From Candidatus Bathyarchaeota archaeon (GTDB lineage Archaea > Thermoproteota > Bathyarchaeia > TCS64): a stretch of 64,000 nucleotides of DNA. The translations under genes were made by a program, and so were the position numbers. Each line of letters opens with the position of its first letter. The first letter of the stretch is position 1. Positions 36,613-49,552 of the stretch are shown here, piece after piece. The stretch lies in assembly GCA_043826455.1 (NCBI GenBank), contig JBDRQD010000048.1:96001-160000 (forward strand), written 5' to 3'. Under the pieces are notes generated by a model. It was not told the origin of the DNA and did no database searches. It saw only the letters and a program-made list of their open reading frames with translations.

Positions 36613-36708
36613 GGAGATTAATGTTTGCTAAGTTTAATGATGTTTTCTGAGAAAGACCGTAGTGCGCCTCTCGGAGACCGAGAAAAGGTATCAATAGCGT
36701 CGGCTGCT

Positions 36709-37266
36709 CTAGCCGCGGGATAGAAGATGGTCGTTGACCCTGCTGTTCACCAGCTGGGGCGTGATGTCCATCATCATGGTGACTCCGCCCGAGTCCACCG
36801 ACACGGTCCTGTACCCCAGGTTCTCCCAAATCCTGCGCAGCGGCCTCCCCGCCTGATCGTACTCCTCCGTGGTGAACTTCACGGCCCTGTACCCGGCCTC
36901 CAGCAGGTAAACCATCTCCAGGACAGCCAGCACAGTGCCTACCCCCTTCCGCTCCACGAGGGTGGCCGAGCTGTCAGAGAAGTACACGCCCGGCTCCTCG
37001 TCCCGGTACCCGAAGTCGTATGCCACAGGCTCCCCGTCCAGCTCCACCATGAGGCAGAAGAACCCAGGCTTGTCCACCCTGGCCCGGAGCTCCTCGCCGG
37101 TGTACCAGAGCTCCGCCCTGAACTTGACGTGGTCGATGGCCGCGATCTTCTCCAGGAGCCCGTCGTCCAGGTGGGTGTGGGTCGAGATGCTGGCGTCCCC
37201 GCCTAGAGAGCCGCTGAGCCTCTTCTCAGCGTACATCACCACATCCCGGAGAGAAGGAGCCTGCAT
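36709..37266 (-). CDS. GNAT-fold hypothetical protein
   Basis: ERKGVGTVL and WENLGY motifs. Confidence 0.6.
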   Translation of the reverse strand: MQAPSLRDVVMYAEKRLSGSLGGDASISTHTHLDDGLLEKIAAIDHVKFRAELWYTGEELRARVDKPGFFCLMVELDGEPVAYDFGYRDEEPGVYFSDSSATLVERKGVGTVLAVLEMVYLLEAGYRAVKFTTEEYDQAGRPLRRIWENLGYRTVSVDSGGVTMMMDITPQLVNSRVNDHLLSRG

Positions 37267-37379
37267 ATTCCATATTTGCTTAACCGAAGATGATATCAAT
37301 TTATCGAGCAGCGAACACGGGCACAGGCCCCGCGAATGTATCCACCTAGCCAAGCTGGCTGTTAAAAGAAAAAGGGGGG

Positions 37380-37682
37380 TTAGATGCGCTCAACCTTGAA
37401 GATGACGGGCCGCACCCCGTCCGCGCAGCACGTCACCGAGGTCCCCTTCTCGCTGAAGAAGGGCAGGTCGCCCCCGTACCACAGGGTCCGGAGGTTGGGG
37501 TATATGGTCTGCCATGCGGAGCCGCAGAAGCCCTCAGGCATGGCCAGGCTGTCTAGGATGTACGTCTGGCCGTCCGTGTAGATGTCGCAGGGCTCCATCC
37601 AGTCCTGGCGCTCCACAGGGAGCTCCTCGAATATATCGTCGGGGTCAAGGCGCTTGACCACAGTTATCTTCAGCTTGGTCAT
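37380..37682 (-). CDS. TIGR04076 family protein
   Basis: PEGFCGSAW, CCADGVRPVIFKVERI. Confidence 0.85.
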   Translation of the reverse strand: MTKLKITVVKRLDPDDIFEELPVERQDWMEPCDIYTDGQTYILDSLAMPEGFCGSAWQTIYPNLRTLWYGGDLPFFSEKGTSVTCCADGVRPVIFKVERI

Positions 37683-37737
37683 TGCAATTAGGTATCTTGG
37701 GGCCAGCCATAAAAAACATGGGTTCCGCTGACCGAGC

Positions 37738-38769
37738 CTAGAGGCCCCACAGGACCCTGGGGACGGTGACGCCTCCCTCCGTCCTGTGCTTGACACTGCG
37801 CCTGATCCTGCCCCAACGGGCAAGCTGCTCCAGGGGCTCGAAGAGGTCGTTGGCGTCGCCGTAGCCCAGCCTTACCAGCGTCCTCCAGGCGTCCTGTTCG
37901 ACGCCGTAGGCTTCGCCGTAGCCTTTTCTGAGGAGGGGGATGAGGAGGTCGTAGCTGTCCAGCTCGCCCTTCTCCTCTAGTAGCCTCTTGACGTGGCTCT
38001 CGAAGATGGCGATGTCTAGGGTGAGGTCGGGGAAGCTTCTCCCGGCGTCCAGCTTGGTTATCTCTGCGTCTCCGGGGGTCAGCTTTATGAGGCTGTTGCT
38101 GGGGGCCCTGAAGACGTTGAACGCGTCTCTGAGGTGGCTGAAGCCGACCCTGCTGCTGGCGAACATGGACTCCCCGTCCCCGACTCCCAGGTAGCAGGGC
38201 TGGTTCCAGTTGGCTATGTAGACGGCGTTGGGCTCGCTGCTGGTCACGGCCCCCAGGAGGACCATGCCGGTGAGGCTGTTAGCTGTTGCGCGGAGCGCCT
38301 CCGCGAAGGCGGCGTCCTCCTTCACCTTGTCGCTGAGCATGTGGACCGCGACCTCGCTGTCGGTGATGTAGTTCAGCTCCTCCACCAGGCTCTCGAAGAC
38401 GTGACTCTTCTCCAGCCTCCTCCAGTGCTCCTCGAAGTTGCTGATTACTCCGTTGTGCATCAGCACAGCGGACCCGTCCTCGGTGAGCCAGGGGTGGGCG
38501 TTCTGAGCCAGGTTGCAGCGGCTGTCCTTGAGGGCGGCGGCGCTGTGCCTGCTGTGGGCTATGCCCGTGGACCCCTTCAGTGAAGCTATCTCTGTCTTCT
38601 TGACCACCTCGTCCCCGGGGCCGTTGTCCTTGATCAAACGTATCTTTCGGCGGTGGATGGTGGCTAGGTCGGTGGCGTGGGCCCCCAGGTACCCTTCCTG
38701 CAGTCGAAGGGACTCCAGGAGGATGGGGGCGGCGTCTCTGCTTCCTACGTAGGCTGCGAGCTGGCACAT
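37738..38769 (-). CDS. class II (Ntn) glutamine amidotransferase domain protein, paralog B
   Basis: MCQLAAY, AHSR, NAHPW, MHNG, TDSEV; colinear with 33718-34761. Confidence 0.85.
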   Translation of the reverse strand: MCQLAAYVGSRDAAPILLESLRLQEGYLGAHATDLATIHRRKIRLIKDNGPGDEVVKKTEIASLKGSTGIAHSRHSAAALKDSRCNLAQNAHPWLTEDGSAVLMHNGVISNFEEHWRRLEKSHVFESLVEELNYITDSEVAVHMLSDKVKEDAAFAEALRATANSLTGMVLLGAVTSSEPNAVYIANWNQPCYLGVGDGESMFASSRVGFSHLRDAFNVFRAPSNSLIKLTPGDAEITKLDAGRSFPDLTLDIAIFESHVKRLLEEKGELDSYDLLIPLLRKGYGEAYGVEQDAWRTLVRLGYGDANDLFEPLEQLARWGRIRRSVKHRTEGGVTVPRVLWGL

Positions 38770-38812
38770 GCGGATAGGGAAAATTCAGGAAGCTATAAAC
38801 TATTGGTTGCCT

Positions 38813-38832
38813 TCCAGGGTGATCCAGCCCTT
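38813..38832. repeat. exact 20-bp duplicate of the ilvH 3' end (att-like)
   Basis: TCCAGGGTGATCCAGCCCTT identical to 39524-39543. Confidence 0.85.
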
Positions 38833-39022
38833 TATCCGCTTAACGATCTTGGGTGCCCCCCGGTCGCCGGGGGTCAGCTTTCTCAGGGTACACGAGTATT
38901 TCACCGACCAACCACCCAACACAGTCGTTTAAAGAGACGCATATAAGTACACACATAGTAAACAGTTATGGCTACATAGGAATGATTATATCCACATACC
39001 ACACTCATATCTACTGATAGAA

Positions 39023-39298
39023 ATGGTTAAGACGTTAAAAGATAAACCCGCCAACTTCATCCCCTTTGTACGCAAAACAGGGAGAAAGCTCAGAGATGCC
39101 ATCATAATGTTCATTGACACCAAAGAATCCACCCTGGTAATAGAGAAAGACGAGATATCTATGTTCAAAGGCAAAACATACGATAACAAGGTATCAGTAT
39201 GCATCGGCTCAATCAAAAGGATACTCAGAAAGAGACAGAATGAATTCATAATAGGCACAAACCACGACAAGACCGAGATATACATAGTAAGAATTTAG
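39023..39298 (+). CDS. small basic hypothetical protein in AT-rich islet
   Basis: 91-codon ORF in A/T-rich DNA; atypical codon usage. Confidence 0.5.
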   Translation: MVKTLKDKPANFIPFVRKTGRKLRDAIIMFIDTKESTLVIEKDEISMFKGKTYDNKVSVCIGSIKRILRKRQNEFIIGTNHDKTEIYIVRI

Positions 39299-39519
39299 CC
39301 ACAATCCATCTCTTTTTAAGCACATAATACGCGCAGATGCGTAACCCCAAGTGGTTTACGTGACCTTTAGTACCTGTTTCTAGCCTATTCTAGGCATAAT
39401 AGGTTAATCTATACAGGGGCTCGATGATGTCTCTGAGCAATGCTGTGTATCTGCTAGGAACCTCAATTGGGACCGGCTTTGGCACTGGACGATGATAAAA
39501 GGGCGGCGGGCCCTCTGGC

Positions 39520-40017
39520 TTACTCCAGGGTGATCCAGCCCTTCTCTATGGCGGTGATGCCGGTGCGGGCCGCCTCTATTATGCCTATGTGCTTGACCTC
39601 CCTCATGAACTCGGTGATCTCGTTCACGGAGCCGGTGACCTCGGCTATTATGGTGTCCGGCTTTATGTCCAGTATCTGGCCCTTGTAGCGGTTGATGGTG
39701 GCCAGAGCCTCCTCCTGGGCCATGGGGTCAGCGGTGCTCAGCTTCACCAGGGCCAGGTCCCGCTGGACGGTGCGCAGCGGGTCCAGGCGCTTCACCTTGA
39801 TGACGTCCACCATCTTCTCTATCTGCTCGACGAGCTTGGTGATCTCGTGGGCGTCTCCGCGGACCGTGATGGTGATCCGGGTGGTGTCCACGTCCTCGCC
39901 GGCGATGGCGGTGATGCTGTGGATGTTGAAGCCCTTGCGCCTGAAGTTGTTGCTGATGTTGAAGAGCACGCCGGGCTTGTTCTCCACCATGAGGCTGATA
40001 ACGTTTAGGGGCGTCAC
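39520..40017 (-). CDS. ilvH: acetolactate synthase small (regulatory) subunit, copy 2
   Basis: VENKPGVL..GFNIHSIT ACT domain, ARTGITAI. Confidence 0.9.
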   Translation of the reverse strand: MTPLNVISLMVENKPGVLFNISNNFRRKGFNIHSITAIAGEDVDTTRITITVRGDAHEITKLVEQIEKMVDVIKVKRLDPLRTVQRDLALVKLSTADPMAQEEALATINRYKGQILDIKPDTIIAEVTGSVNEITEFMREVKHIGIIEAARTGITAIEKGWITLE

Positions 40018-41702
40018 GGTAGATCATCCGTCAATATGTCCTTTAAACCCATCCCTGGGGGGATCATGGGGTACACGTTCTCCTCGGGGTCTATGGGCAC
40101 CTCTATCACCGTGGTGTAGTCCGCCGCAGCGGCTCTCCTCAGCTCCGTGTTCAGCTCCTTCATGGTCTCCGTCTTGACGCCGTGGGCTCCGTAGGTCTTG
40201 ACAAGCTCCGTGAAGTCCAAGGTGTAATCCCTTTTCACGGCCGAGTATCTGCCCCCCATGAAGAGGCGCTGCCACTGGGCCACCATGCCCAGCATCCTGT
40301 TGTTGAGCACCACCACCACTATGGGCAGGTCCTCGTCCACGGCTACCGCCAGGTTGTTCTCCGTCATGGCGAAGCTGCCGTCCCCGCTTATGTTCAGCAC
40401 CACCCTGTCGGGTCTGGCCGCCTTGGCGCCTATGGCTGCGGGGGTCCCCCACCCCATGGTGCCCAGGCCGCCGGAGGTGAGGAAGGTGCCGGGCTCGTAG
40501 ACGTCGTAGTGGAGGGCCGCCAGCATCTGGTGCTGGCCCACGTCGGTGGTCACCAAGGCGTCCCCGGGGAGGGCGCGTCTGATGGCCTTGATGACTGCGG
40601 GACCCGTTATCCCGTTGGCGTACTCCGGCACCTCGTAGCTGCGCCTGAACTCCTCTATCTTGTGGGCCCACTCGCCGTTGCCTCCCTCGGCCCTCCTCAG
40701 GGCCCTGATCTGTTCCACCAGGCCCCTGATGCAGGGCTTGGCGTCTCCCCAGACCTTGATGACGCTCTCCACGTTCTTGTCTATCTCGCTGCGGTCAATG
40801 TCCATGTGGATGATCCTGGCGCCTGGGGCGAACCCGGCCAGGGCCCCGGTGGTCCTGTCACTGAACCTGCTGCCCACCACCAGGAGCACGTCCGCGTCGG
40901 GCACTAGGTAGTTGGCCTCCGCCCTGCCGTGCATCCCCAGGAGCCCCAGGCTCAGGGGGTGGTTGCTGGGTATGGAGCCCTTGCCCATGAGGCTGGTGGC
41001 CGTGGGCGCCATGAGCAGCTCAGCCAGCTCGGTCAGCTCCCTGCCTGCCCCGGCGCTCACCACCCCACCGCCCGCCACTATGACGGGCTGCCTGGCCTCA
41101 GAGAGTACCTTGGCCGCCCACTCCAGCTCCGTGGGGTCCGGCTGTAACCTGGGCCTGTAGCCGGGGAAACTCACCTCGGCGTCGAAGTCCATGTCCGCGG
41201 ACTCTGTGGTGACGTTCTTGGGCAAGTCCACCAGCACGGCCCCCTTCCTGCCCGTGTTAGCCACATACATGGCCGCCTTCACGGCCCAGGGTATGCGCCC
41301 GGGCTCCCTCACCTGGTGGTTCCACTTGGTGATGCTGGCGGTGACGCCGATGATGTCCACCTCCTGGAAGGCGTCGGTGCCCACCATGCTCATGCTCACC
41401 TGGCCTGTGAAGGCCACCAGGGGGCTGCTGTCCAGCTGGGCCGTGGCGACGCCTGTGACTATGTTGGTGGCGCCGGGTCCGCTGGTCACCTGGACCACGC
41501 CGGGCCGCCCGGAGGCCCTGGCGTAGCCGTCGGCCATGTGGGCGCTGCCCTGCTCGTGGACGCCCGGCACGTACCTCATGTCGGTGTTCAGCATCTCGTC
41601 GCATATGGGTATCAGGGCCGCGCCCGTGATACCGAATACGTGTGTAACTCCCTCCTTCTCCAGGGCCCTGACGTAGGCCCTGGCTCCTGTCATCTCAGTC
41701 AT
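40014..41702 (-). CDS. ilvB: acetolactate synthase large subunit, copy 2
   Basis: HEQGSAHMADGYAR, TSGPGATN, GTDAFQE, SGGLGTMG, GDGSF..NN TPP motif. Confidence 0.95.
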   Translation of the reverse strand: MTEMTGARAYVRALEKEGVTHVFGITGAALIPICDEMLNTDMRYVPGVHEQGSAHMADGYARASGRPGVVQVTSGPGATNIVTGVATAQLDSSPLVAFTGQVSMSMVGTDAFQEVDIIGVTASITKWNHQVREPGRIPWAVKAAMYVANTGRKGAVLVDLPKNVTTESADMDFDAEVSFPGYRPRLQPDPTELEWAAKVLSEARQPVIVAGGGVVSAGAGRELTELAELLMAPTATSLMGKGSIPSNHPLSLGLLGMHGRAEANYLVPDADVLLVVGSRFSDRTTGALAGFAPGARIIHMDIDRSEIDKNVESVIKVWGDAKPCIRGLVEQIRALRRAEGGNGEWAHKIEEFRRSYEVPEYANGITGPAVIKAIRRALPGDALVTTDVGQHQMLAALHYDVYEPGTFLTSGGLGTMGWGTPAAIGAKAARPDRVVLNISGDGSFAMTENNLAVAVDEDLPIVVVVLNNRMLGMVAQWQRLFMGGRYSAVKRDYTLDFTELVKTYGAHGVKTETMKELNTELRRAAAADYTTVIEVPIDPEENVYPMIPPGMGLKDILTDDLP

Positions 41703-41788
41703 GTTTGGCTGCCTCCCACTCCCGCCTCACCTTGAAGGGCTGGGCGGGCACGTTAGTAGAAGTTTTACGTTTGGTTTCTCTGCGGGGT

Positions 41789-41812
41789 CTACCTAAGAAT
41801 ACGATACCCCAT
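41789..41812 (-). CDS. putative leader peptide uORF2 (MGYRILR) of ilvB copy 2
   Basis: GGAGGGG SD inside uORF1, TGA-ATG junction, positional homolog at 46627-46653. Confidence 0.55.
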   Translation of the reverse strand: MGYRILR

Positions 41813-41857
41813 TCAGCTCTGCCCCTCCGCTGGGGGCCCGACAAAACGATACCCCAT
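41813..41857 (-). CDS. putative leader peptide uORF1 (MGYRFVGPPAEGQS) of ilvB copy 2
   Basis: GAGGAG SD 7 nt upstream; homolog at 46654-46695. Confidence 0.55.
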   Translation of the reverse strand: MGYRFVGPPAEGQS

Positions 41858-41903
41858 TTTCAGTCTCCTCGTACCGTTCGTAATGTTGGATGAAGGCTCA
41901 CCT

Positions 41904-41911
41904 AATAAAAA
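41904..41911 (-). promoter_or_regulatory. TATA box of ilvB copy 2 leader
   Basis: CTTTTTATT conserved at the same offset in both ilvB leaders. Confidence 0.65.
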
Positions 41912-41943
41912 GGTTGTCAGTAACGCTTGTTGCATACGAGCGG

Positions 41944-42420
41944 CTAGGGCGGGAATAGGGGCACAAACTTGTAGGTATCGCTGAAGTCTATGCGGTTCTC
42001 CCCCAGCATGGTCTCTATCCTCATGGCGCCCTTGAACTCCCACTCCCAGACCCGGCTCGTCCGGGCAGCCTGTATGTGGGTGCCGCTGGTGGGTGGCAGC
42101 GTCAAGGTTCTCTCCACTATCTGGGGCGTCCCCCCCACCACGGTTATTGGGCCGGCTATGGTGTCCGTGGTCAGGGCCACGCCGTTGAGCATGACGCTGT
42201 AGGGCGTCTCCAGGACGGTGACGCGGACGCCCCGCGGGTTGGTGTACTTGAAGCTGAGGTACATTGTGGAGTCGGTGGGGGTGAACCCCATGATCTGGAC
42301 CTCCACATCCGTGTACATGGCCGACTTCACGTAGCCCCAGTAGTCCAGGGCCACGGCCGCCACTACGATGAGCACCAGCCCGAGGGCTATGAAGGCGGGC
42401 AGTTTCTTGCGCTCAGTCAT
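41944..42420 (-). CDS. membrane-anchored LEA type 2-like protein
   Basis: N-terminal TM; YTNPRG..YSVMLNG beta-sandwich pattern. Confidence 0.6.
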   Translation of the reverse strand: MTERKKLPAFIALGLVLIVVAAVALDYWGYVKSAMYTDVEVQIMGFTPTDSTMYLSFKYTNPRGVRVTVLETPYSVMLNGVALTTDTIAGPITVVGGTPQIVERTLTLPPTSGTHIQAARTSRVWEWEFKGAMRIETMLGENRIDFSDTYKFVPLFPP

Positions 42421-42487
42421 CGATGAATGTGGGGGCTCATGGCGAATAAAAGTGTGGCTTGTTTCAAATCACGTGTTATTTCAAGCA

Positions 42488-43237
42488 CTAGCTGAGCTTC
42501 TTGAAAACATATATTGCCCATCCCTGTGCGTCTCGTCCTTCCTCCAAGTACGCGTTCTTATATCCCAGAATCTTTGAGAGAAGCTCCTCGTTGTCAGGGT
42601 CGTCGGGGTTCTCAGTCAAGTGTTGCTCAACTGCCAGCCACTGGAGGCTCTCATAGTGATCCCAGTCATCCTCGTCGCTCATGATGGTGTAAACACACCT
42701 CATACCCATGTCCTCACCAACCCGTATGTTCTCGAGGTGGCTTCCGCAGTCCTCTTTCTTCATCTTCTGGGACTCAAGATACTCGTCACTCGGCTCCCTC
42801 ATCCAGAAGGGTTCGCCGACGACAACCCAGCCACCGGGGGCAGTCATCTCTGAGAGCGTCTTTAAGGTCCCTCTGTGGCCGCCGTAGACCCAGCTCGCGC
42901 CGATGCAGCTAGCTAAACGGAACTTCTCACAGTTTCTAGGCTTATAGTCCGCTCCATCCATCTCCAAGAAATCCAGGTCCGCCTCAGGCACCCGTCCCTG
43001 TTTCTTTTCTCTACAGTAACGGATACAGAACGGTGACTTGTCTACGCCGACCCCTGATACGTCGTACAGCTCAGCGAGCCTGACGAGGAACTCACCCTTA
43101 CCGCACGCGATGTCTAGAACACGGTCCTTCTTCTTCAAGGGAAGTACATCGCATAGCCTGTAGAATTTCTCCCTATTCATGGGGTTGCAGACGAGGTGCT
43201 TCTTATGGGTGATGTCGAAGAACTTCCAGCGGTCCAT
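42488..43237 (-). CDS. class I SAM-dependent methyltransferase
   Basis: VLDIACGKGE, GVGVD, SCIGASWVYGG, GEPFW. Confidence 0.88.
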   Translation of the reverse strand: MDRWKFFDITHKKHLVCNPMNREKFYRLCDVLPLKKKDRVLDIACGKGEFLVRLAELYDVSGVGVDKSPFCIRYCREKKQGRVPEADLDFLEMDGADYKPRNCEKFRLASCIGASWVYGGHRGTLKTLSEMTAPGGWVVVGEPFWMREPSDEYLESQKMKKEDCGSHLENIRVGEDMGMRCVYTIMSDEDDWDHYESLQWLAVEQHLTENPDDPDNEELLSKILGYKNAYLEEGRDAQGWAIYVFKKLS

Positions 43238-43345
43238 GCTTCATCAGCGAGGTCTATCGTTTAAAATAGTTACGTGAACACTGCGGGGGCACGTTAAACT
43301 ACGCTTTTGTACAACAAATAGGGAAATGAAGAGAATTGAGGGCGC

Positions 43346-44344
43346 CTACTTCTCCAATCCGCTCATCCTGCGGACCTGACGCCCGACCTTCTCGATCTCC
43401 AGGGCGTCGCACTCCGCCATGAGCTCCTCGAACTTCTTGGCCCCCGCCTTGCTCTCAGCGATCCAGGCCTTGGCGAAGCTGCCGTCACGGACCGCCTTCA
43501 GCGCCTCCCGCATGTTGGCCTCAACATGATCATCAACGATCACTGGGCCCACGGTCATGCCTCCCCACTTGGCGGTGTCGCTCACGGCCCGGTACATGCC
43601 TCCGATGCCGCTCTTGTATATGAGGTCCACTATGAGCTTCAGCTCGTTGCACACCTCGAAGTACGCCAGTTCAGGCGGGTACCCGGCCTCCGTAAGCACC
43701 TTGAAGCCGCGCCTGATGAGCTGGTCAACGCCTCCGCAGAGGACGGCCTGCTCGCCGAAGAGGTCCGACTCGGTCTCGTTCTTGTAGGTGGTCTCGATGA
43801 CGCCCGCCCGGCCGCTGCCCAGGGCCTTGGCTACGGCCAGGGCCTTCTTGAGGGCCTGGCCTGAGGCGTCCTGGTGGACCGCCACCAGTGCGGGGACCCC
43901 GAACCCGGCCTCGTACTGGCGCCTCATCTCGGGGCCTGGGCTCTTGGGGGCCACCATGATGACATCCACGTCCTTTGGCGGCTTAATCTCCCCGAAGTGG
44001 ATGTTGAACCCGTGGGCGAACTGGAGGGCCTTGCCCGGCGTCATGGCCAGGGCCACCTCCTCCTTGTAGACGCTAGGCTGCGCCATGTCCGGCATCAGCA
44101 TCAGCACCACGTCGCCCCTCTGGGCGGCCTCCAGGTGGGTCACGGGCTTGAACCCGTCCTCCTGGGCCCGCTTCCAGCTCTTCCCTCCGGGCCTGAGCCC
44201 CACCACTACGTTTACGCCGCTGTCCCTCATGTTGAGGGCCTGGGCTCTACCCTGGCTCCCGTAGCCTAGGACGGCCACGGTCTTTCCCTTCAAGACTGAC
44301 TCGTCTATGTCCTTGTCGTGGTAAACCTTCACCAATCTATTCAC
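43346..44344 (-). CDS. ilvC: ketol-acid reductoisomerase
   Basis: [44 protein letters not shown]. Confidence 0.97.
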
Positions 44345-44830
44345 CTACAGTTTTAGCCGCCCCTTCTCCAGGGCGGTGACTCCCGTCCTCGACATCTCTA
44401 CGACGCCGACGCTCTTAACGTAATCCAGGAACTGGTCCAGCTCCTCGGGCGTCCCGCTCACCTCAGCCATGATGTTGTCCTCGTCTATGTCTAGGACCAG
44501 GCCGTGCTGGTTGTTGATGAGGCGCAGGGCGTCTTCCCGGGCCATGGGGTCCCTGGTACTCAGCTTCACCAGCAGCATCTCCCGCCGCACAATACGCAGC
44601 GGGTCCAGGCGCTTCACCTTCACCACCTCCACCATCTTGTCCAGCTGCTCCAGGAGGTTGTTCAGGGTCCTGGGGTCAGCCTCCACGGTGATGGTCATCC
44701 TGCTGTACCTGGAGTCCTCCAGGGCCCCCACGGTTATGCTGTCGATGTTGAAGCCCCGGCGCCTGAACAGGTTGCTCACGTTGAAGAGGACCCCCGGCTG
44801 GTTCTCCACCAGGAAGCTGACGGTGTGCAC
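44345..44830 (-). CDS. ilvH: acetolactate synthase small (regulatory) subunit, copy 1
   Basis: VENQPGVL..RRGFNIDSITVG, SRTGVTAL. Confidence 0.93.
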   Translation of the reverse strand: MHTVSFLVENQPGVLFNVSNLFRRRGFNIDSITVGALEDSRYSRMTITVEADPRTLNNLLEQLDKMVEVVKVKRLDPLRIVRREMLLVKLSTRDPMAREDALRLINNQHGLVLDIDEDNIMAEVSGTPEELDQFLDYVKSVGVVEMSRTGVTALEKGRLKL

Positions 44831-46519
44831 CTAGTCGGCCTCCATGAGGGTGTCCTTCAGCCCCATCCCCGGGGGCACCATGGGCATCACGTTCTCCTCG
44901 GGGTCGATGGGCACGTCGATGACAGTGGGCACGTCGGCCTTCATGGCCCTCCGCACCGCGGCCCTGAACTCGTCGTAGGAGGCCACCCTGACGCCCTCGG
45001 CCCCGTAGGCGCCGGCCAGCTTAACGAAGTCCGGGTTGCCCTTCAGCTTCACCGCCGAGTACCTGCGGTTGTAGAAGAGGCGCTGCCACTGGGCCACCAT
45101 GCCCAGCACGTTGTTGTTCAGCACCACCACTATGACGGGGAGCTCCTCCTCCACCGCCGTTGCCAGCCCGTTCTCCGTCATGCCGAAGCTGCCGTCCCCG
45201 GCGATGTCCACCACCGGGACCCCCGGCTTGGCCGCCTTGGCCCCGATGGCTGCGGGGAAACCCCACCCCATGGTTCCTAGGCCGCCGCTGGTGAAGAAAG
45301 TTCGGGGCATGTACGCGTCGAAGTGGAGGGCCGCCCACATCTGGTTCTGGCCCACCTCCGTGGTGACTATGGCGTCCCTGGGCAGCTCCTGCCGCAGGGC
45401 CCTGATGACCTTGGGGGCCCGCAGGTAGGGGGGCCTCTCCTCGCCGTTTTCACCCATGTCGCACCTGAGCTCCCCTATGCGTTTGGTCCACTCGGGGCTG
45501 GTCTTGACCGTGCGAAGCACCTTCACCCTGTCCAGGAGGCCCCTGAGGGCCAGCCCGGCGTCGCCCACCACCTTGGTCAATGTCTCTACGTTCTTATCGA
45601 TCTCGCTGCGGTCGATGTCTATGTGGATGACCTTGGTGTTGGGGGCGAACTCGCTGATCTTGCCGGTGGTCCTGTCGCTGAAGCGTGACCCCACCACCAG
45701 GAGCACGTCGGACTTGGGGACCATCATGTTGGCCTCCATGGTGCCGTGCATCCCGCAAAGGCCCAAGCTCAGGGGATGGTCGCTGGGTATGGCCCCCTTG
45801 CCCATGAGGCTGGTGGCCGTGGGCGCCAGCAGGAACTCGGCCAGGGCCGTAAGCTCACCGCTGGCCCCAGCCGCTATGACGCCGCCCCCGGCCATGATGA
45901 TGGGCCTCTCGGCCTCAGCCAGTATCTTGGCGGCCCAGTCCAGCTCCTCGGGGCTGGGCGCCTTCGGCGGCGAGTAACCTCTGAAGCTCACCTCTTCCGG
46001 GAACACCATCTCAGCTGACTCGGTGGTGCAGTCCTTGGGTATGTCCACCAGGACGGCCCCCTTCCTGCCCGTGTCGGCCACGTAGAAGGCCCTCTTCACG
46101 GCCACAGGAATCTCCTCCGGGCTCGTCACCGGGATGTTGTACTTGGTGACGCTGGCCGAGACCCCTATTATGTCGCACTCCTGGAAAGCGTCGGTCCCTA
46201 TCACAGGCCTGTTCACCTGGCCCGTGAAGGCTACCACGGGGCTGCTGTCGATCTGAGCAGTGGCCAGGCCCGTGACTAGGTTAGTGGCACCGGGCCCGCT
46301 GGTGGCCATGCAGACTCCCACCTTGTTGAGGGCCCGTGCGTAGCCGTCGGCCATGTGGGCGGCGCCCTGCTCGTGGCGCGCCAGGATGAACCTCATGTCG
46401 CTGTTGAGCAGCTCGTCGCATATGGGGATCAGTGAGCCGCCGCTGATGCCGAAGATGTGCCTGGTGCCCTCCCGCTCCAGGGCCTTGACGAAGGCGCGGG
46501 CCCCGGTCATCTCAGTCAT
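44831..46519 (-). CDS. ilvB: acetolactate synthase large subunit, copy 1
   Basis: RHEQGAAHMADGYAR, TSGPGATN, VGQNQMW, GDGSF..NN. Confidence 0.95.
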   Translation of the reverse strand: MTEMTGARAFVKALEREGTRHIFGISGGSLIPICDELLNSDMRFILARHEQGAAHMADGYARALNKVGVCMATSGPGATNLVTGLATAQIDSSPVVAFTGQVNRPVIGTDAFQECDIIGVSASVTKYNIPVTSPEEIPVAVKRAFYVADTGRKGAVLVDIPKDCTTESAEMVFPEEVSFRGYSPPKAPSPEELDWAAKILAEAERPIIMAGGGVIAAGASGELTALAEFLLAPTATSLMGKGAIPSDHPLSLGLCGMHGTMEANMMVPKSDVLLVVGSRFSDRTTGKISEFAPNTKVIHIDIDRSEIDKNVETLTKVVGDAGLALRGLLDRVKVLRTVKTSPEWTKRIGELRCDMGENGEERPPYLRAPKVIRALRQELPRDAIVTTEVGQNQMWAALHFDAYMPRTFFTSGGLGTMGWGFPAAIGAKAAKPGVPVVDIAGDGSFGMTENGLATAVEEELPVIVVVLNNNVLGMVAQWQRLFYNRRYSAVKLKGNPDFVKLAGAYGAEGVRVASYDEFRAAVRRAMKADVPTVIDVPIDPEENVMPMVPPGMGLKDTLMEAD

Positions 46520-46626
46520 GTTTGCTCAGCTCCCATGTTCTGCTGAGGCGGTACCCCGCCGGGGCTCCGCCGTGCTCTGGTTCTCGGACGCTAGAATACT
46601 TCTTAGCGTGGTTCAGTCGTTTGGGT

Positions 46627-46653
46627 CTACGATATAATAAAACGATACCCCAT
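46627..46653 (-). CDS. putative leader peptide uORF2 (MGYRFIIS) of ilvB copy 1
   Basis: GGAGGGGG SD inside uORF1, TAA-ATG junction. Confidence 0.55.
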   Translation of the reverse strand: MGYRFIIS

Positions 46654-46695
46654 TTAAGCCCCCTCCGCCCGGGGGTTGACAAAGCAATTCCCCAT
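46654..46695 (-). CDS. putative leader peptide uORF1 (MGNCFVNPRAEGA) of ilvB copy 1
   Basis: GGAG SD 8 nt upstream; homolog of 41813-41857. Confidence 0.55.
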   Translation of the reverse strand: MGNCFVNPRAEGA

Positions 46696-46741
46696 TTTTT
46701 GGTCTCCAGTTGGGTAGGTAACATGAAGGGCAGGGTGAGCC

Positions 46742-46749
46742 AATAAAAA
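46742..46749 (-). promoter_or_regulatory. TATA box of ilvBHC leader
   Basis: CTTTTTATT, same as in the second ilvB leader. Confidence 0.65.
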
Positions 46750-46966
46750 GCTTACTACTGTACGTATTCATACACACAAGCATAATTCCTGTTCCGAATG
46801 TCTCTCAGGTGAGGCGGGTTCTGGATAAACGACTAAAGTTGGACAGGCCTCATTTTCCCCATATCTTCAACGAGTCCAGGCAGCATTCATGCGGCTCACC
46901 GGGGCCGCGGCTCTCCGCCACCTTAACAGTTATCTCCTCGGCCCCAACAAATACATGAGGAAAGAT

Positions 46967-48187
46967 ATGAGCTACTTCACGCACCTTGATTGCTCGGCCT
47001 GCGGCGAGGAGCACGACGCCACCATCGTCCAGACCGTGTGCAAGAAATGTGGAAAACCTCTCCTGGCCAGGTACGACCTGGGGAGAGTAGCGGAGGAGGT
47101 GACCAAACGGGAGCTGGTGGGCCGAGAGGCCACCATGTGGAGGTACTGGGAGATGCTCCCCGTCAAGAGCAGGAAGAACGTGGTGAGCCTCGGGGAGGGG
47201 TGGACCCCCCTGACGCCTGCGCCCCGCCTCGGAGAGGAGATCGGGCTACCCGACCTCTTGGTCAAGGACGAGGGCGTCATACCCACGGGCAGCTTCAAGG
47301 CCCGCGGCCTGGCCATGGCCGTGAGCAAAGCCAAGGAACTAGGCATAAAGCGCGTCGCCCTGCCTTCGGCCGGCAACGCCGCCGGCTCCATGGCCGCCTA
47401 CGGGGCCCGCGCCGGGATGGAGGTCTACGTCTTCATGCCCAAGGACGCCCCCAAGGTGAACATGGTGGAGAGCGAGATCGTCGGCGCCAAGGTGGTGCTG
47501 GTGGACGGCTTCATCACCGACGCCGGGAAGCTGGTGAAGGAGGGCATCAGCGAGATGGGCTGGTTCAACGTGACCACCCTGGGCGAGCCCTACAGGATCG
47601 AGGGCAAGAAGACCATGGGCCTGGAGGTGGCCGAGCAGCTCGACTGGCGTCTCCCCGACGTGATAGTGTACCCAACAGGCGGAGGCACGGGCATCATAGG
47701 CATGTGGAAGGTCTTCGACGAGCTGGAGGAGATGGGCTGGATAGGCAGCGAGCGGCCCAGGATGGTGAGCGTCCAGGCCGAGGGCTGCGCCCCCATAGTC
47801 AAGGCCTACAACGAGGGCAAGAAGGAGTCGGAGTACTTCCAGAACGCCAAGACTCTGGCCGCCGGCCTTAGGGTACCCAAGGCCCTGGGCGACTTCCTGA
47901 TACTTAGGGCGGCCAGGGAGAGCGGAGGCACCTGCATAGCCGTCAGCGACGAGGAGATCATGGACAGCGTGGGCCAGATCGGCCGGGCCGAGGGTCTCTT
48001 CGCGTGCCCCGAGGGTGCGGCCACCCTGGCGGCCCTGAAGAAGATGCTGGCGGACGGTCAGGTGGACAGGGACGAGAAGGTGGTCCTCTTCAACACGGGT
48101 TCGGGCCTCAAGTACGTGGATCTGTTCGAGGTGCACGCCTCCGTGGCGGACCCCAGGAAGCCCTTCAACTACCGGAGCCTACTCTGA
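46967..48187 (+). CDS. thrC: threonine synthase
   Basis: N-terminal CxxC..CxxC, SLGEGWTPL, PTGSFKARG, EGKKTMG, PTGGGTG. Confidence 0.88.
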   Translation: MSYFTHLDCSACGEEHDATIVQTVCKKCGKPLLARYDLGRVAEEVTKRELVGREATMWRYWEMLPVKSRKNVVSLGEGWTPLTPAPRLGEEIGLPDLLVKDEGVIPTGSFKARGLAMAVSKAKELGIKRVALPSAGNAAGSMAAYGARAGMEVYVFMPKDAPKVNMVESEIVGAKVVLVDGFITDAGKLVKEGISEMGWFNVTTLGEPYRIEGKKTMGLEVAEQLDWRLPDVIVYPTGGGTGIIGMWKVFDELEEMGWIGSERPRMVSVQAEGCAPIVKAYNEGKKESEYFQNAKTLAAGLRVPKALGDFLILRAARESGGTCIAVSDEEIMDSVGQIGRAEGLFACPEGAATLAALKKMLADGQVDRDEKVVLFNTGSGLKYVDLFEVHASVADPRKPFNYRSLL

Positions 48188-48237
48188 CCCGTTCAGCAAC
48201 CTTTTTCCCCTACTACTCTTCTTTCACGCGATACATC

Positions 48238-49146
48238 TTGCCTGAAGCAGCGGCCTTCGCCCCAGGGCACCTCACGGGCCTATTCCAGATATGCGATCAG
48301 CCCGAGGACCCCCTGCTGAAGGGGGCAAGGGGATCAGGGGTCAGCCTCACCCGTGGCACCCACACCACCGTCACAGCTGAGGTCAGCCGCCGCCACAGCC
48401 ACACCGTGGCCATCAACGGGGAGACCATGGCCGACGCCGTGGTCAGCGAGAACGTCCTGGGCAAGTACCTGCCCCGACTCACCAGGCCCCACAGCATACG
48501 CATCAGCCACATCATCGACACGCCCCTCACCGCGGGCTTCGGTAGCAGCGGCGGCGGGGCCCTCAGCCTAAGCCTGGCCCTCAACCAGGCCCTGGGTACA
48601 GGCTTAACTAGGGTCCAGGCGGCCCAGATCGCCCACGTGGCTGAGATAGAGTGTGGCACCGGCCTGGGCAGCGTCTTCGCCGCCAACGTGGGCGGCTTCG
48701 GGGTTCTCCACAGGCCCGGGGCACCGGGCGTCGGCGCCAGCGTGTCCTACCCCAGGAGCCGTGAGCTGAGCGTCGTGTACCTCTACTATGGGCCCATCAA
48801 GACCAAGGAGGCCCTGGGGAACCCTGAGCTGCGGAGCAGGATCAACCAGATAGGTGGCGGGTACGTGGACGAGTTGCACAGGGGGCTCACCCCCGAGAGG
48901 TTCATGAGGCTCTCCAGGCAGTTCACGGAGCACGTAGGCCTCGTCACCCCCCGGCTGAGACGGGTATTCGACGCCATGGACTCCGAGGGCGTGGTCTTCA
49001 CCATGGCCATGTTCGGTGAGGTGGCCTTCACGGTTCAGCTCAGGGACGGGGCTGAGGATGTGGCTGACCTTGTGCGGGGGAAGGGCTTGGCTGAACCCGT
49101 GGTGTGTGGCATAGACACTCGTGGAGCAGTCCTGCTAGGCGACTAG
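48238..49146 (+). CDS. archaeal pantoate kinase (GHMP family)
   Basis: AFAPGHLTGLF, GARGSG, GFGSSGGGAL, AHVAEIECGTGLG. Confidence 0.85.
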   Translation: MPEAAAFAPGHLTGLFQICDQPEDPLLKGARGSGVSLTRGTHTTVTAEVSRRHSHTVAINGETMADAVVSENVLGKYLPRLTRPHSIRISHIIDTPLTAGFGSSGGGALSLSLALNQALGTGLTRVQAAQIAHVAEIECGTGLGSVFAANVGGFGVLHRPGAPGVGASVSYPRSRELSVVYLYYGPIKTKEALGNPELRSRINQIGGGYVDELHRGLTPERFMRLSRQFTEHVGLVTPRLRRVFDAMDSEGVVFTMAMFGEVAFTVQLRDGAEDVADLVRGKGLAEPVVCGIDTRGAVLLGD

Positions 49147-49158
49147 AAAGGGCGGCGC

Positions 49159-49416
49159 CTACACCCTGATGGGGATCAGGATCTCCGTTATGTAATGCGT
49201 CATGTGGATTGGGCGGGGCACCTTCCTGCTCATCTCCTGGAAGTGGTCGAAGCCGTTGGCCTGGAACAGCCACACGTAGTTCCACTTCTCGTTCATGCTG
49301 CCGAAGAGGCCCTCATGTTCGACTGCGGTCTCGATGCAGGCCTTCTGCATCTTCTTGTCGTGCTCCTTGAGCTCCTTGCGTGTGCCTGTCCAGTCGAAGT
49401 AAAGCAGGATTTTCAT
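49159..49416 (-). CDS. small hypothetical protein
   Basis: ORF with host codon usage filling the gap between convergent genes. Confidence 0.6.
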   Translation of the reverse strand: MKILLYFDWTGTRKELKEHDKKMQKACIETAVEHEGLFGSMNEKWNYVWLFQANGFDHFQEMSRKVPRPIHMTHYITEILIPIRV

Positions 49417-49552
49417 CCGTCGGTCCCCTTGACGTATCCCACCATCCATATATCCTTATCGCTCCGTGAACCCTCATAAGAGGCTTACAGTTAACGCGGC
49501 CACTGCGAGCACAATCCATAATAGATAACGGTGTGACCCTTGTAACCTGTCA

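What the first reader, a model, noticed from the sequence alone, without database searches (positions are those of the whole stretch)
41702..46750. Tandem leader-peptide (double uORF) attenuator conserved upstream of both archaeal ilvB genes
Seen: both ilvB leaders (41702-41912 and 46519-46750, minus strand) share one layout: CTTTTTATT TATA box, GGAG SD, uORF1, stop directly abutting the ATG of uORF2, then TAGACCC. uORF1 is MGYRFVGPPAEGQS (41857-41813) or MGNCFVNPRAEGA (46695-46654), with a single Val (GTC) at codon 6 in both. uORF2 is MGYRILR (41812-41789) or MGYRFIIS (46653-46627), with adjacent Ile-Leu or Ile-Ile codons. The SD of uORF2 (GCGGAGGGG) lies inside uORF1, and the 3-nt indels between copies keep each uORF in frame. 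Known: bacterial ilvGMEDA/ilvBN operons are attenuated by single leader peptides rich in Ile/Leu/Val. Inference: a two-stage ribosome-dependent switch sensing Val (uORF1) and Ile/Leu (uORF2), with different uORF2 codons tuning the two AHAS isozymes. I know of no described tandem-uORF attenuator for archaeal ilv genes.
Basis: partly seen in the sequence, partly recalled or inferred. Interest (0 to 1): 0.9.

Follow-up and report, generated by a model that had tools for sequence, protein, structure and literature searches.

The report
Amino-acid-sensing frameshift leader in archaea
A tiny, almost invariant six-codon cassette in front of the valine, leucine and isoleucine genes of these uncultured archaea most likely makes the ribosome slip one base forward when the matching amino acid runs short, which switches on the gene behind it; no amino-acid sensor of this kind has been described.

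Summary
Both ilvB leaders carry two tandem mini-ORFs built on one cassette: SD, then ATG GGG WAT YGY TTT, then one branched-chain codon. The cassette is not private to ilvB. It matched in 186 of 401 genomes of the class (Bathyarchaeia-like).

The sixth codon fits the gene behind it:
- Val in 13 of 13 valS leaders.
- Ile in 49 of 49 leuA/cimA-family genes.
- Val followed by Ile or Leu before ilvB.

The decisive new finding concerns the +1 frame.
- In 49 of 49 leuA-type loci the enzyme is encoded in the +1 frame of the cassette. No conserved start codon of its own is present, across four spacer lengths.
- In 29 of 29 ilvB and valS leaders the +1 frame has no stop from the first cassette to a stop that overlaps or abuts the main start codon. 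Frames 0 and +2 each hold 1-5 stops.

Best reading (about 0.6): a hungry-codon +1 ribosomal frameshift sensor, not a hairpin attenuator. There is no experimental evidence. If true, this would be the first +1 recoding and the first amino-acid-sensing leader shown in Archaea.

The parts
41904..41912 (-). TATA-like box (CTTTTTATT) of the ilvB1 leader promoter
   Evidence: Sequence. An A+T peak lies 51-40 nt upstream of the first cassette ATG in all three gene classes. The promoter role is inferred.
41865..41870 (-). SD-like GAGGAG before cassette 1
   Evidence: Sequence. It is complementary to the 16S 3' tail ...GGATCACCTCCT read. SD-like 4-mers occur before 82 of 88 cassettes.
41840..41857 (-). 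Cassette 1 of the ilvB1 leader: ATG GGG TAT CGT TTT GTC (Val sensor). The 0-frame mini-ORF runs to the TGA at 41815-41813.
41821..41837 (-). G+C hairpin (GCCCC / GGGGC) just after the Val codon; its 3' arm is the SD of cassette 2
   Evidence: All 24 Val-type cassettes listed have a predicted hairpin of this kind. The listed stems differ in sequence while staying complementary.
41795..41812 (-). Cassette 2 of the ilvB1 leader: ATG GGG TAT CGT ATT CTT (Leu sensor; ATT replaces TTT). The 0-frame stop TAG is at 41791-41789.
   Evidence: The homologous cassettes in six congeners read TTT CTC AGG.
41695..41856 (-). +1-frame open stretch of 53 codons, from TGG inside cassette 1 to TGA at 41697-41695. 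The TGA sits between the two in-frame ATGs of ilvB1 (41702-41700 and 41693-41691).
   Evidence: (row L002): 0 stops in +1, against 5 in frame 0 and 2 in frame +2.
40014..41702 (-). ilvB1, acetolactate synthase large subunit (followed by ilvN at 39520-40017)
46742..46750 (-). TATA-like box (CTTTTTATT) of the ilvB2 leader promoter
   Evidence: An RNA-library contig from a relative ends at 46707; this is weak evidence.
46678..46695 (-). Cassette 1 of the ilvB2 leader: ATG GGG AAT TGC TTT GTC (Val sensor). The 0-frame stop TAA is at 46656-46654.
46659..46675 (-). Hairpin CCCCC / GGGGG after the Val codon; its 3' arm is the SD of cassette 2
   Evidence: row L004.
46636..46653 (-). Cassette 2 of the ilvB2 leader: ATG GGG TAT CGT TTT ATT (Ile sensor). 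The 0-frame stop TAG is at 46629-46627.
46512..46694 (-). +1-frame open stretch of 60 codons, ending at TGA 46514-46512, between the two in-frame ATGs of ilvB2 (46519-46517 and 46510-46508)
   Evidence: (row L004): 0 stops in +1, against 5 in frame 0 and 2 in frame +2.
44831..46519 (-). ilvB2, acetolactate synthase large subunit (followed by ilvN at 44345-44830 and ilvC at 43346-44344)

Best explanation
Each mini-ORF is a sensor cassette that is translated from its own SD and ATG. Codons 1-5 (Met-Gly-Tyr/Asn-Arg/Cys-Phe) are fixed at the nucleotide level. Codon 6 is a Val (GTY), Ile (ATY) or Leu (CTY) codon. In this genome each of these is read by a single G34 tRNA.

Proposed mechanism:
- When that tRNA is well charged, the ribosome reads on in frame 0 and terminates within 1-9 codons.
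- When it is scarce, the A site stays empty. The peptidyl-tRNA(Phe) on TTT slips one base forward to TTN, and the ribosome continues in the +1 frame.

In the leuA/cimA-family gene the +1 frame is the enzyme itself, so the enzyme is made only as a trans-frame product.

Before ilvB and valS the +1 frame is open across the whole leader (124-241 nt from the first cassette's ATG) and stops on or next to the main start codon. A shifted ribosome therefore escorts the transcript to the start and hands over. It could do this by termination-reinitiation, or by shielding the leader RNA from premature termination or decay.

Tandem cassettes share one frame, so a shift at either feeds the same +1 frame. 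That gives OR logic: ilvB1 responds to Val or Leu, ilvB2 to Val or Ile.

Shown here: the anatomy, its conservation, the frame rules and the match between codon and gene. Inferred: the frameshift itself, its exact site, its response to tRNA charging and the hand-over step.
For: (1) leuA-type loci.
- 49 of 49 unique sites have the catalytic DTTLRDGEQ motif in frame +1 of the cassette ATG, at spacings of 15, 16, 17 or 19 codons.
- 28 of 49 have no ATG, GTG or TTG anywhere between the upstream in-frame stop and that motif.
- The other 21 have only scattered candidates, none conserved across all loci.
- A mechanical ORF caller cuts this gene to 384 aa from an internal ATG.
- The family profile NF002085 starts 9 positions before residue 4 of my translation, which places it at about the cassette ATG.
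- Between nt 17 and 49 the sequence variation has the 3-periodicity of frame +1.

(2) An ortholog in family f17, which had no motif match, has an ordinary SD and in-frame ATG. One in f19 has an in-frame TTG that I take as its start.

(3) ilvB and valS leaders.
- All 29 of 29 leaders (16 ilvB, 13 valS; families f1, f2, f4) have 0 stops in +1, against 1-5 stops in each other frame.
- The +1 stop lies -13 to +14 nt from a main-frame start. In 11 of 13 valS leaders it is an NTGA overlap. In 12 of 16 ilvB leaders it reads TGA-N-ATG.
- The shuffle probability of an open +1 frame is 0.025-0.27 per leader. Over 15 clusters below 70% identity the product is 4.9e-15. This figure is rough, because the clusters share ancestry.

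(4) Codon 6 is GTY in 13 of 13 valS leaders and ATY in 49 of 49 leuA-type loci. Before ilvB it is GTY, then ATY or CTY. One genome has three tandem cassettes: Val, Leu, Ile (L152).

(5) Nucleotides 1-16 of the cassette are nearly invariant (per-position entropy at most 0.22), including third codon positions. For comparison, third positions of the catalytic motif reach 1.32.

(6) The same pattern with one G fewer matches only at background level, and none of the 7 examples fetched starts a leuA gene.

(7) G000 has one tRNA-Phe(GAA), one tRNA-Ile(GAU), and single GAC (Val) and GAG (Leu) tRNAs.

(8) The literature says UUU_Y is especially prone to +1 shifting, and that the influenza cassette is UCC_UUU_CGU (PMC5009743 passages).
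Against: - There is no protein, Ribo-seq or reporter evidence.
- After a slip on TTT followed by A or G, tRNA-Phe re-pairs at only two of three positions. Only the Leu type (TTT C) gives a cognate slip.
- The own ilvB1 cassette 2 has ATT instead of TTT.
- The G-run lies 6 nt from the slip codon, not 3 as I recall for RF2, so its role as a stimulator is uncertain.
- A gene that depends wholly on a frameshift needs a substantial shift rate.
- The main starts of ilvB and valS have their own SD and are not predicted to be sequestered: mean unpaired probability 0.51, against 0.49 with shuffled leaders, and lower than the control in only 10 of 29. What keeps them off without a shift is therefore unexplained.
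- ATY at nt 8-10 is also invariant, and it could be an unusual +1-frame start codon.
- Many of the genomes are close relatives, so the counts overstate independence.
Confidence: 0.6

Rival explanations
1. A classical leader peptide without a frameshift. The ribosome stalls at codon 6, and the stall changes RNA folding, transcription termination or RNA stability downstream. The open +1 frame would then be a by-product.
For: SD, start codon and BCAA codon are conserved. Val-type cassettes are followed at once by a hairpin whose stems differ in sequence yet stay complementary in all 24 cassettes listed, and its 3' arm is the SD of the next cassette. Earlier notes from this scan report BCAA-rich leader ORFs before ilvB in other archaea (unchecked).
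Against: - It cannot explain how the leuA/cimA-family enzyme is started in 49 of 49 loci.
- It does not explain why the +1 frame alone is free of stops in 29 of 29 leaders and ends exactly at the main start.
- There is one sensor codon rather than a run.
- No second, competing hairpin was found. Ile-type cassettes mostly have no hairpin (mean z -0.16 for the leuA type).
- The main ribosome-binding site is not predicted to be sequestered.
Confidence: 0.12
2. Non-canonical initiation. The invariant ATY at nt 8-10 is a weak start codon for the +1 ORF (the enzyme, or the long leader ORF). The ATG mini-ORF overlaps it and modulates its use.
For: By my reading of the 88 cassettes tallied, nt 8-10 read ATT or ATC in all. 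The C/T change at nt 10 is silent in frame +1. The +1 peptide G-I-[A/V/I/T]-L varies only conservatively.
Against: - The SD sits at the usual distance from the ATG, not from ATY.
- The first codon varies only between ATG and GTG, as a start codon does.
- A ribosome stalled at codon 6 would cover both starts, so starvation would lower expression rather than raise it.
- This model gives no role to TTT or to the gene-matched codon 6.
- I know of no report of AUY start codons in archaea (recalled, not searched).
Confidence: 0.12
3. Another recoding route into the same frame: a shift at a different codon of the cassette (for example on the G-run just after initiation), a -2 shift, or polymerase slippage on the T-run.
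For: The frame rules only say that the change of frame happens between nt 4 and 19. Start-codon-associated frameshifting induced by starvation has been reported in human cells (bioRxiv 10.1101/2023.02.15.528768; abstract read).
Against: - Codon 6 would then not need to match the regulated gene.
- T3-T4 is short for polymerase slippage (own knowledge).
- Contigs from RNA libraries that cross both cassettes of the ilvB2 leader show no indel there. This is weak evidence, because contigs drop rare variants (table 4).
Confidence: 0.06
4. The motif is an operator for a DNA- or RNA-binding regulator, or a tRNA-binding riboswitch, and the reading frames are incidental.
For: Conservation is at the nucleotide level. 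The same motif serves a BCAA regulon.
Against: - SD, start-codon behaviour, the fixed frame relations and the indels in multiples of three argue against it.
- There is no Rfam match.
- There is no dyad symmetry in the motif (my reading of the sequence).
Confidence: 0.04

Closest known systems
Autoregulatory +1 frameshift of bacterial release factor 2 (prfB)
   Same: An early, short 0-frame ORF ends in a nearby stop, and the product proper lies in the +1 frame. The shift rate is set by how fast the 0-frame A-site codon is decoded. A G-rich SD-like run lies shortly upstream of the slip codon, and the site is conserved at the nucleotide level. (Principle recalled; CUU_U and UGA are mentioned in PMC5009743 passages.)
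   Different: - Here the slow A-site codon is a sense codon read by an aminoacyl-tRNA, not a stop read by a protein factor.
- The slip codon is TTT.
- The G-run lies 6 nt, not 3 nt, upstream.
- The host is an archaeon.
- The cassette is modular and reused on several genes with different sensor codons.
Ketolide-induced frameshift in the ermC leader ORF
   Same: A shift inside a short leader ORF lets ribosomes run on in a new frame across the spacer, and this turns on the main gene (PMC5009743 passage).
   Different: - The trigger there is an antibiotic, not tRNA charging.
- That system works by unfolding a structure that hides the start; I found no such sequestration here.
- Here the new frame ends exactly on the main start.
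Leader-peptide attenuators of bacterial BCAA operons (ilvL, ivbL, leuL; Corynebacterium ilvBNC)
   Same: A short translated leader with Val, Ile or Leu codons lies before ilv and leu genes, and the ribosome senses tRNA charging. (Recalled; PMC11857589 seen only in a search listing.)
   Different: - There is one sensor codon at a fixed position rather than a run.
- There is no terminator/antiterminator pair.
- A frame change is required.
- The system also controls an aminoacyl-tRNA synthetase.
Hungry-codon frameshifting and shift-prone UUU sites (UUU_Y; influenza UCC_UUU_CGU)
   Same: P-site tRNA-Phe on UUU slips forward while the A site waits for a scarce tRNA (PMC5009743 passages; 'hungry' frameshifting in a PMC8211752 passage).
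   Different: These are known as an error, a laboratory phenomenon or a viral expression trick. They are not known as a conserved cellular sensor that controls amino-acid genes. The pheL case was judged incidental.
T-box riboswitches
   Same: The regulon logic is the same: one codon-specific reading of tRNA charging controls both the synthetase and the biosynthetic genes (recalled).
   Different: T-box RNA binds the tRNA directly and is bacterial.
fucA1 -1 frameshift of Saccharolobus solfataricus
   Same: Recoding by frameshift in an archaeon.
   Different: It goes in the -1 direction, uses a heptamer slippery site and is not a metabolite sensor. A 2021 review calls it the only programmed frameshift reported in Archaea (PMC8211752, abstract passage).

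Membership tests
Leader-peptide transcription attenuator (ilvL/ivbL/leuL type) | Short translated ORF between the promoter and the structural gene | tested here: met
   SD-like 4-mer before 82 of 88 cassettes, against 27% at random positions. Start codon ATG in 82 and GTG in 6. An A+T peak lies 51-40 nt upstream.
Leader-peptide transcription attenuator (ilvL/ivbL/leuL type) | Run of several codons for the end-product amino acid | tested here: not met
   A single sensor codon sits at position 6. At most two adjacent BCAA codons occur in some ilvB cassettes.
Leader-peptide transcription attenuator (ilvL/ivbL/leuL type) | Mutually exclusive terminator and antiterminator hairpins | tested here: not met
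   Val-type cassettes have one hairpin (all 24 listed). Ile-type cassettes mostly have none. The alifold run on 13 valS leaders gives only the GGGG:CCCC pairing and one long-range helix.
Programmed +1 ribosomal frameshift gene (prfB / antizyme kind) | Main ORF in the +1 frame of a short upstream ORF, without a start codon of its own | tested here: met
   49 of 49 leuA-type loci are in frame +1. 28 of 49 have no ATG, GTG or TTG at all, and the rest have only candidates not conserved across all loci. Motif-less orthologs have an ATG (f17) or an in-frame TTG that I take as the start (f19).
Programmed +1 ribosomal frameshift gene (prfB / antizyme kind) | Shift site conserved at the nucleotide level, synonymous positions included | tested here: met
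   Entropy is at most 0.22 over nt 1-16, against 1.32 at third positions of DTTLRDGEQ.
Programmed +1 ribosomal frameshift gene (prfB / antizyme kind) | Stimulatory element (upstream SD-like pairing or 3' structure) | tested here: inconclusive
   GGGGT can pair with the 16S tail CCTCC read (my own pairing by eye). A 3' hairpin is present only in Val-type cassettes.
Programmed +1 ribosomal frameshift gene (prfB / antizyme kind) | Trans-frame protein product | not testable with these tools
   This needs proteomics or N-terminal sequencing.
Leader-ORF frameshift that activates a downstream start (ermC/ketolide kind) | The alternative frame of the leader ORF stays open across the spacer to the main start | tested here: met
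   29 of 29 leaders; the +1 stop lies -13 to +14 nt from a main-frame start.
Leader-ORF frameshift that activates a downstream start (ermC/ketolide kind) | The main ribosome-binding site is hidden in a structure that the shifted ribosome unfolds | tested here: not met
   Unpaired probability of SD to start is 0.51, against 0.49 with shuffled leaders, and lower than the control in 10 of 29 (37 C RNA parameters).
T-box or other described riboswitch | Match to a curated RNA family | tested here: not met
   Rfam: 0 matches at E up to 1 in 36000-50000.

The most novel reading that the evidence does not exclude
Bathyarchaeia and a neighbouring lineage use a modular, codon-programmable +1 frameshift switch (Met-Gly-Tyr-Arg/Cys-Phe followed by a sensor codon) as their way of coupling tRNA charging to gene expression. 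A central biosynthetic enzyme, the leuA/cimA-family synthase, exists only as a trans-frame product. The same module was copied in front of ilvB and valS, where the shifted ribosome is delivered exactly onto the main start codon. This would be the first natural amino-acid sensor based on hungry-codon frameshifting in any domain, and the first +1 recoding in Archaea.
Probability: 0.5. Interest if true: 0.95.

Novelty: new variant of a known kind. Interest (0 to 1): 0.9.

Why it matters
How archaea sense amino-acid supply at the level of single genes is largely unknown. Neither leader-peptide attenuation nor T-box control has been shown in them, and a 2021 review lists one programmed frameshift, in the -1 direction, for the whole domain (PMC8211752).

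This element offers a concrete and testable mechanism with a simple grammar: changing codon 6 should change the amino acid that is sensed. It would turn hungry-codon frameshifting from a translational error into a regulatory principle.

There is a practical consequence as well. Gene callers truncate or miss the start of the leuA/cimA-family gene in these genomes, which can distort metabolic reconstructions of a very abundant sediment lineage.

The cassette is short (18 nt plus an SD), so it could serve as a compact synthetic sensor if it works as proposed.

Tried and rejected
- Rfam on 36000-50000 at E up to 1: nothing.

- The search for related loci with the LeuA-family protein in genome contigs: 79 loci, but only one close relative (63% identity, titled Candidatus Bathyarchaeota archaeon). 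The rest were bacteria or distant archaea, and I did not use them.

- Test of whether the leader hides the SD and start of ilvB or valS: no difference from shuffled leaders. I therefore dropped 'unfolding' as the preferred hand-over step.

- Search for an in-frame form of the cassette with one G fewer: 36 of 251 genomes matched, no more often than the reversed-pattern control. None of the 7 places examined starts a leuA gene.

- TTG- and CTG-starting variants of the motif, and matches outside the class: 5 of the 7 places fetched outside the class, and most TTG variants, lie inside other reading frames. Two odd cases were left open. L165 and L179 each have a Val-type look-alike with a long +1 ORF of another kind.

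- A profile of the 88 cassettes run on the own genome finds only the six known copies (E at most 0.24; the next hit has E 6.7). I found no cassette before ileS, leuS, ilvD or the second leuA paralog.

- Avoidance of Val, Ile and Leu codons in the +1 leader peptides: none seen by eye in two leaders, and not pursued.

- RNA evidence: only contigs of relatives (90-97% identity) from three metatranscriptome runs. They cover ilvB2 plus its leader up to 46707. Parts of the ilvB1 leader have no cover. Neither transcription nor a 5' end is proven.

- Earlier notes of this scan, searched by sequence: none.

- Literature searches found nothing describing this element: judged from listings only, apart from the passages and the one abstract read. 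No supplements were opened.

Full report
**1. The observation.**

- the CTTTTTATT box;
- an SD-like GGAG or GAGG;
- a 13-14-codon uORF1 with a single GTC at codon 6;
- a stop that directly abuts the ATG of a 7-8-codon uORF2;
- a GGAGGGG inside uORF1 that serves uORF2.

The two leaders align with a strongly conserved core and two 3-nt indels. Both downstream genes are biosynthetic acetolactate synthase large subunits, followed by ilvN, and ilvB2-ilvN is followed by ilvC.

The 16-mer around the start of each uORF occurs 5 times in the window at up to 3 mismatches, against 0.13 expected.

**2. The motif is a regulon-wide, class-wide cassette.**

In the whole genome (2.95 Mb, 81 contigs) the pattern ATGGGGWATYGYWTT, with at most 1 mismatch, occurs 8 times, and the reversed control 0 times.
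- Four of these are the ilvB uORFs.
- One lies about 155 nt upstream of valS, giving MGNCFVDPPAGI with a single Val. The gene scores as valine-tRNA ligase (NF009687, 608 bits on the N-terminal half).
- One lies at the very 5' end of a leuA/cimA-family gene, giving MGYRFIS (NF002085, 575 bits, above its cut-off). That gene is followed by leuC-, leuD- and leuB-like genes.
- The other two look like chance matches.

A profile of 88 cassettes finds the same six and nothing else.

Taxonomic spread:
- 38 of 41 genomes of a first draw of relatives have matches, including 24 of 24 of the same genus.
- The stricter pattern DTGGGGWAYYRYTTTRTH matches 186 of 401 genomes of the class. By family the counts are f1 69/70, f4 6/6, f11 64/104, f13 19/25, f26 2/59 and f17 0/16. 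By my count of the table, the reversed control matches in 13 genomes.
- One representative each of f26, f12 and f27 had no match at E 1e-40 or better with my leuA-family protein query.
- Outside the class, 10 of 255 genomes match. I fetched 7 of these places. Two, both in family f55, are true leuA-type sites.

The only named close relative of the enzyme is titled Candidatus Bathyarchaeota archaeon.

**3. The data set.**

From the loci fetched, a script found 115 unique motif hits. Of these, 49 lie before a leuA-type gene, 13 before valS and 27 before ilvB by my regular expressions. One of the 27 (L175, plus strand) is a false hit and was dropped. Another 26 had none of the three genes downstream and were left out. 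The ones I looked at lie inside other reading frames or at contig ends.

Codon 6 is:
- GTC or GTT in 13 of 13 valS cassettes;
- ATT or ATC in 49 of 49 leuA-type cassettes;
- before ilvB, GTY in 11, ATY in 13 and CTC (after ATT) in 2.

A separate search for a pyrimidine after TTT found six further ilvB leaders of the genus in which the second cassette reads TTT CTC AGG (Leu), and one in another genus. These seven are not among the 88.

The own ilvB1 cassette 2 (ATT CTT AGG) is the homologue of that Leu cassette. So ilvB1 senses Val and Leu, and ilvB2 senses Val and Ile. One genome has three cassettes in tandem: Val, Ile-Leu, Ile (L152).

All sensor codons end in a pyrimidine. The genome has one tRNA-Ile(GAU), one tRNA-Phe(GAA), and single GAC (Val) and GAG (Leu) tRNAs.

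**4. The +1 frame.**

This is the point that changes the interpretation.

(a) leuA type.
- In all 49 loci the DTTLRDGEQ motif of the enzyme lies in frame +1 of the cassette ATG. The spacing is 15 codons in 2 loci, 16 in 37, 17 in 5 and 19 in 5, so indels have kept the frame.
- In 28 of 49 there is no ATG, GTG or TTG anywhere between the upstream in-frame stop and that motif.
- The other 21 have scattered candidates at positions such as -5, -14 and +37, none conserved across all loci.
- The upstream in-frame stop is often the TGA of the SD-like GTGA at -8 (13 loci).
- The ORF listing therefore calls the gene from an internal ATG, at 384 aa instead of about 505.
- An ortholog from family f17, which had no motif match, begins with SD and ATG in frame (MNNKNGRVRIFDTT...). 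One from f19 has an in-frame TTG that I take as its start.
- The genome's second paralog, on another contig, also has an ordinary start.

(b) ilvB and valS.
- In 29 of 29 leaders the +1 frame has no stop from the first cassette to the main start (124-241 nt). Frame 0 has 1-5 stops and frame +2 has 1-5.
- The +1 stop overlaps the valS start as NTGA in 11 of 13 leaders. The other two lie at +14 and -7.
- Before ilvB it reads TGA-N-ATG in 12 of 16. That is 5 nt after a first in-frame ATG and 1 nt before a second. The others lie at +1, +4, +5 and -13.
- The main gene is in frame 0 (valS) or +2 (ilvB) of the cassette in the rows, apart from two f2/f4 leaders (L020, L021). So the open +1 frame is not simply the gene's own frame running upstream.
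- Mononucleotide shuffles leave the +1 frame open with probability 0.025-0.27 per leader. Over 15 clusters below 70% identity the product is 4.9e-15. The clusters share ancestry, so this figure is only illustrative.

In the window the +1 stretches are 41856-41695 and 46694-46512.

**5. Conservation pattern.**

I compared the 37 leuA-type sequences of equal spacing.
- Nucleotides 1-16 of the cassette have a per-position entropy of at most 0.22, at all three codon positions.
- From nt 17 to the catalytic motif, entropy peaks at the third position of frame +1 (1.37, against 0.94 and 0.77).
- Inside DTTLRDGEQ the third positions reach 1.32.

The cassette is thus held at the nucleotide level, as recoding signals are, and frame +1 is the coding frame from about nt 17 onward.

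The pattern with three instead of four G matches only at background level.

**6. Promoter, SD and structure.**

- An A+T peak (0.80-0.83 before leuA-type and valS cassettes, 0.69 before ilvB) lies 51-40 nt upstream of the first cassette ATG in all three gene classes. This fits a TATA box and a 5' UTR of about 20 nt (the promoter geometry is recalled).
- SD-like 4-mers precede 82 of 88 cassettes, against 27% at random positions. The 16S 3' end reads ...GGATCACCTCCT.
- Val-type cassettes are followed within 0-3 nt by a G+C hairpin in all 24 cassettes listed. The listed stems differ in sequence but stay complementary, for example GATCCCC/GGGGATC, GTTCCCC/GGGGAAC and GGTCCC/GGGACC. Ile-type cassettes mostly lack one.
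- In the ilvB leaders the 3' arm of that hairpin is the SD of the next cassette.
- The main SD and start are not predicted to be hidden by the leader.

**7. RNA.**

Three metatranscriptome runs from three studies hold contigs of relatives (90-97% identity) that bridge the 5' part of ilvB2 and its leader:
- X3 record 24 spans 46071-46707.
- X1 record 8 spans 46133-46656.
- X2 record 16 spans 46481-46656.

One contig reaches 48 nt into the ilvB1 leader (41419-41750). No indel is reported in the cassettes. Contigs from an RNA library prove neither transcription nor ends, so this is a weak hint that leader and gene share one RNA.

**8. Mechanism.**

The simplest model that covers all of this is a hungry-codon +1 frameshift. 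tRNA-Phe sits on TTT in the P site while the A site waits for Val-, Ile- or Leu-tRNA. A slip to TTN follows, and translation continues in frame +1.

This explains:
- the gene-matched codon 6;
- the invariant TTT;
- the early 0-frame stops;
- the missing start of the enzyme gene;
- the stop-free +1 frame that ends on the main start;
- why tandem cassettes must share a frame;
- the direction of control, with scarcity giving more enzyme or more synthetase.

Published work states that UUU_Y is especially prone to +1 shifting and that influenza uses UCC_UUU_CGU (PMC5009743 passages).

For the hand-over at ilvB and valS I favour termination-reinitiation at the overlapping stop and start. An alternative is protection of the nascent leader from factor-dependent termination (recalled: FttA/aCPSF1). 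Both are inferences.

Open problems:
- the imperfect re-pairing on TTT-A and TTT-G;
- ATT in place of TTT in the own ilvB1 cassette 2;
- the role of the G-run;
- what limits independent initiation at the main SD.

**9. Comparison and novelty.**

The nearest known systems are:
- RF2 autoregulation, which uses the same kinetic principle but with a stop codon;
- the ketolide-induced frameshift in the ermC leader, where a shifted ribosome activates the next gene (PMC5009743);
- bacterial BCAA leader peptides;
- hungry-codon frameshifting as an error.

The same review judged frameshifting in the pheL leader incidental. A 2021 review states that only one programmed frameshift, in the -1 direction, has been reported in Archaea (PMC8211752).

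My five literature searches found nothing on this element (listings only).

Earlier notes of this scan report BCAA-rich leader ORFs before ilvB in other archaeal groups (unchecked AI notes). None of the eight entries shown mentions a frame rule.

I file the element as a new variant of regulatory +1 frameshifting and of leader-ORF control, not as a member of the attenuator family. Two of that family's defining features were tested and not met.

Noticed in passing
L001:1326-1535 (G000 contig C39, valS leader) and the 12 other valS leaders: All 13 valS leaders hold a conserved CGGACAAC followed by a TATA-like TTTTAAAG or ATTATAAG, about 70 nt before the valS start. Around it lies a long-range helix GCGGA/TCCGC (paired in 9-12 of 13 sequences at each position). 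This could be an internal promoter giving basal valS expression, or an RNA element.
   Followed up: partly
G000 contigs C40, C28, C30, C31, C39 (43973-43987), C43, C48 (255994-256008, outside the window), C77 (two copies): A repeat of about 45 nt, starting GTAGGGGGGTATCATTTTATGG and containing an inverted repeat (TTTTATGAC...GTCATAAAA), occurs at least 9 times in the genome. It shares GGGGTATC with the cassette but has no ATG.
   Followed up: no
L207 (G000:C57:55500-60000) and L206 (G000:C66:9400-11300): The genome has two leuA-family synthases (46% identical), each followed by its own leuC- and leuD-like genes. Only one carries the Ile cassette. NCBIfam cannot tell isopropylmalate synthase from citramalate synthase here. 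The Ile sensor suggests that the cassette-bearing copy serves isoleucine synthesis (citramalate route).
   Followed up: partly
L152 (G189:C1:497846-499200): An ilvB leader has three tandem cassettes (Val, Ile-Leu, Ile). The first has no stop before the second, so the cassette can also be read as an internal Met-Gly-Tyr-... during elongation. Family f4 leaders have a degenerate first cassette (GTG CAT CGT TTT followed by GTC or CTC) without the G-run.
   Followed up: partly
L165 (G047:C75) and L179 (G366:C1), also L123: These are Val-type look-alikes (GTG or TTG GGG .. TTT GTY) with a short 0-frame ORF and a long +1 ORF (322 and 199 codons) for unrelated proteins. They could be chance, or further genes that use the same trick.
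   Followed up: no
window 41706 joined to 46628/46635 in RNA-library contigs (table 5): Contigs from two runs join the start region of ilvB1 to the ilvB2-type leader, skipping about 4.9 kb. This suggests relatives with a single ilvB operon, or a recombinant arrangement of the two paralogous leaders.
   Followed up: no
whole genome G000: The assembly is listed with 97.66% completeness and 7.21% contamination, so some contigs may belong to another organism. The six cassettes lie on three contigs.
   Followed up: no
window 38986-39285, 41944-42420, 42488-43237 (minus strand): Small ORFs sit inside or between the two ilv operons: a 99-aa ORF with no Pfam match, a 158-aa ORF with a weak DUF4307 match, and a 249-aa methyltransferase. 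Their link to the ilv genes is unknown.
   Followed up: no
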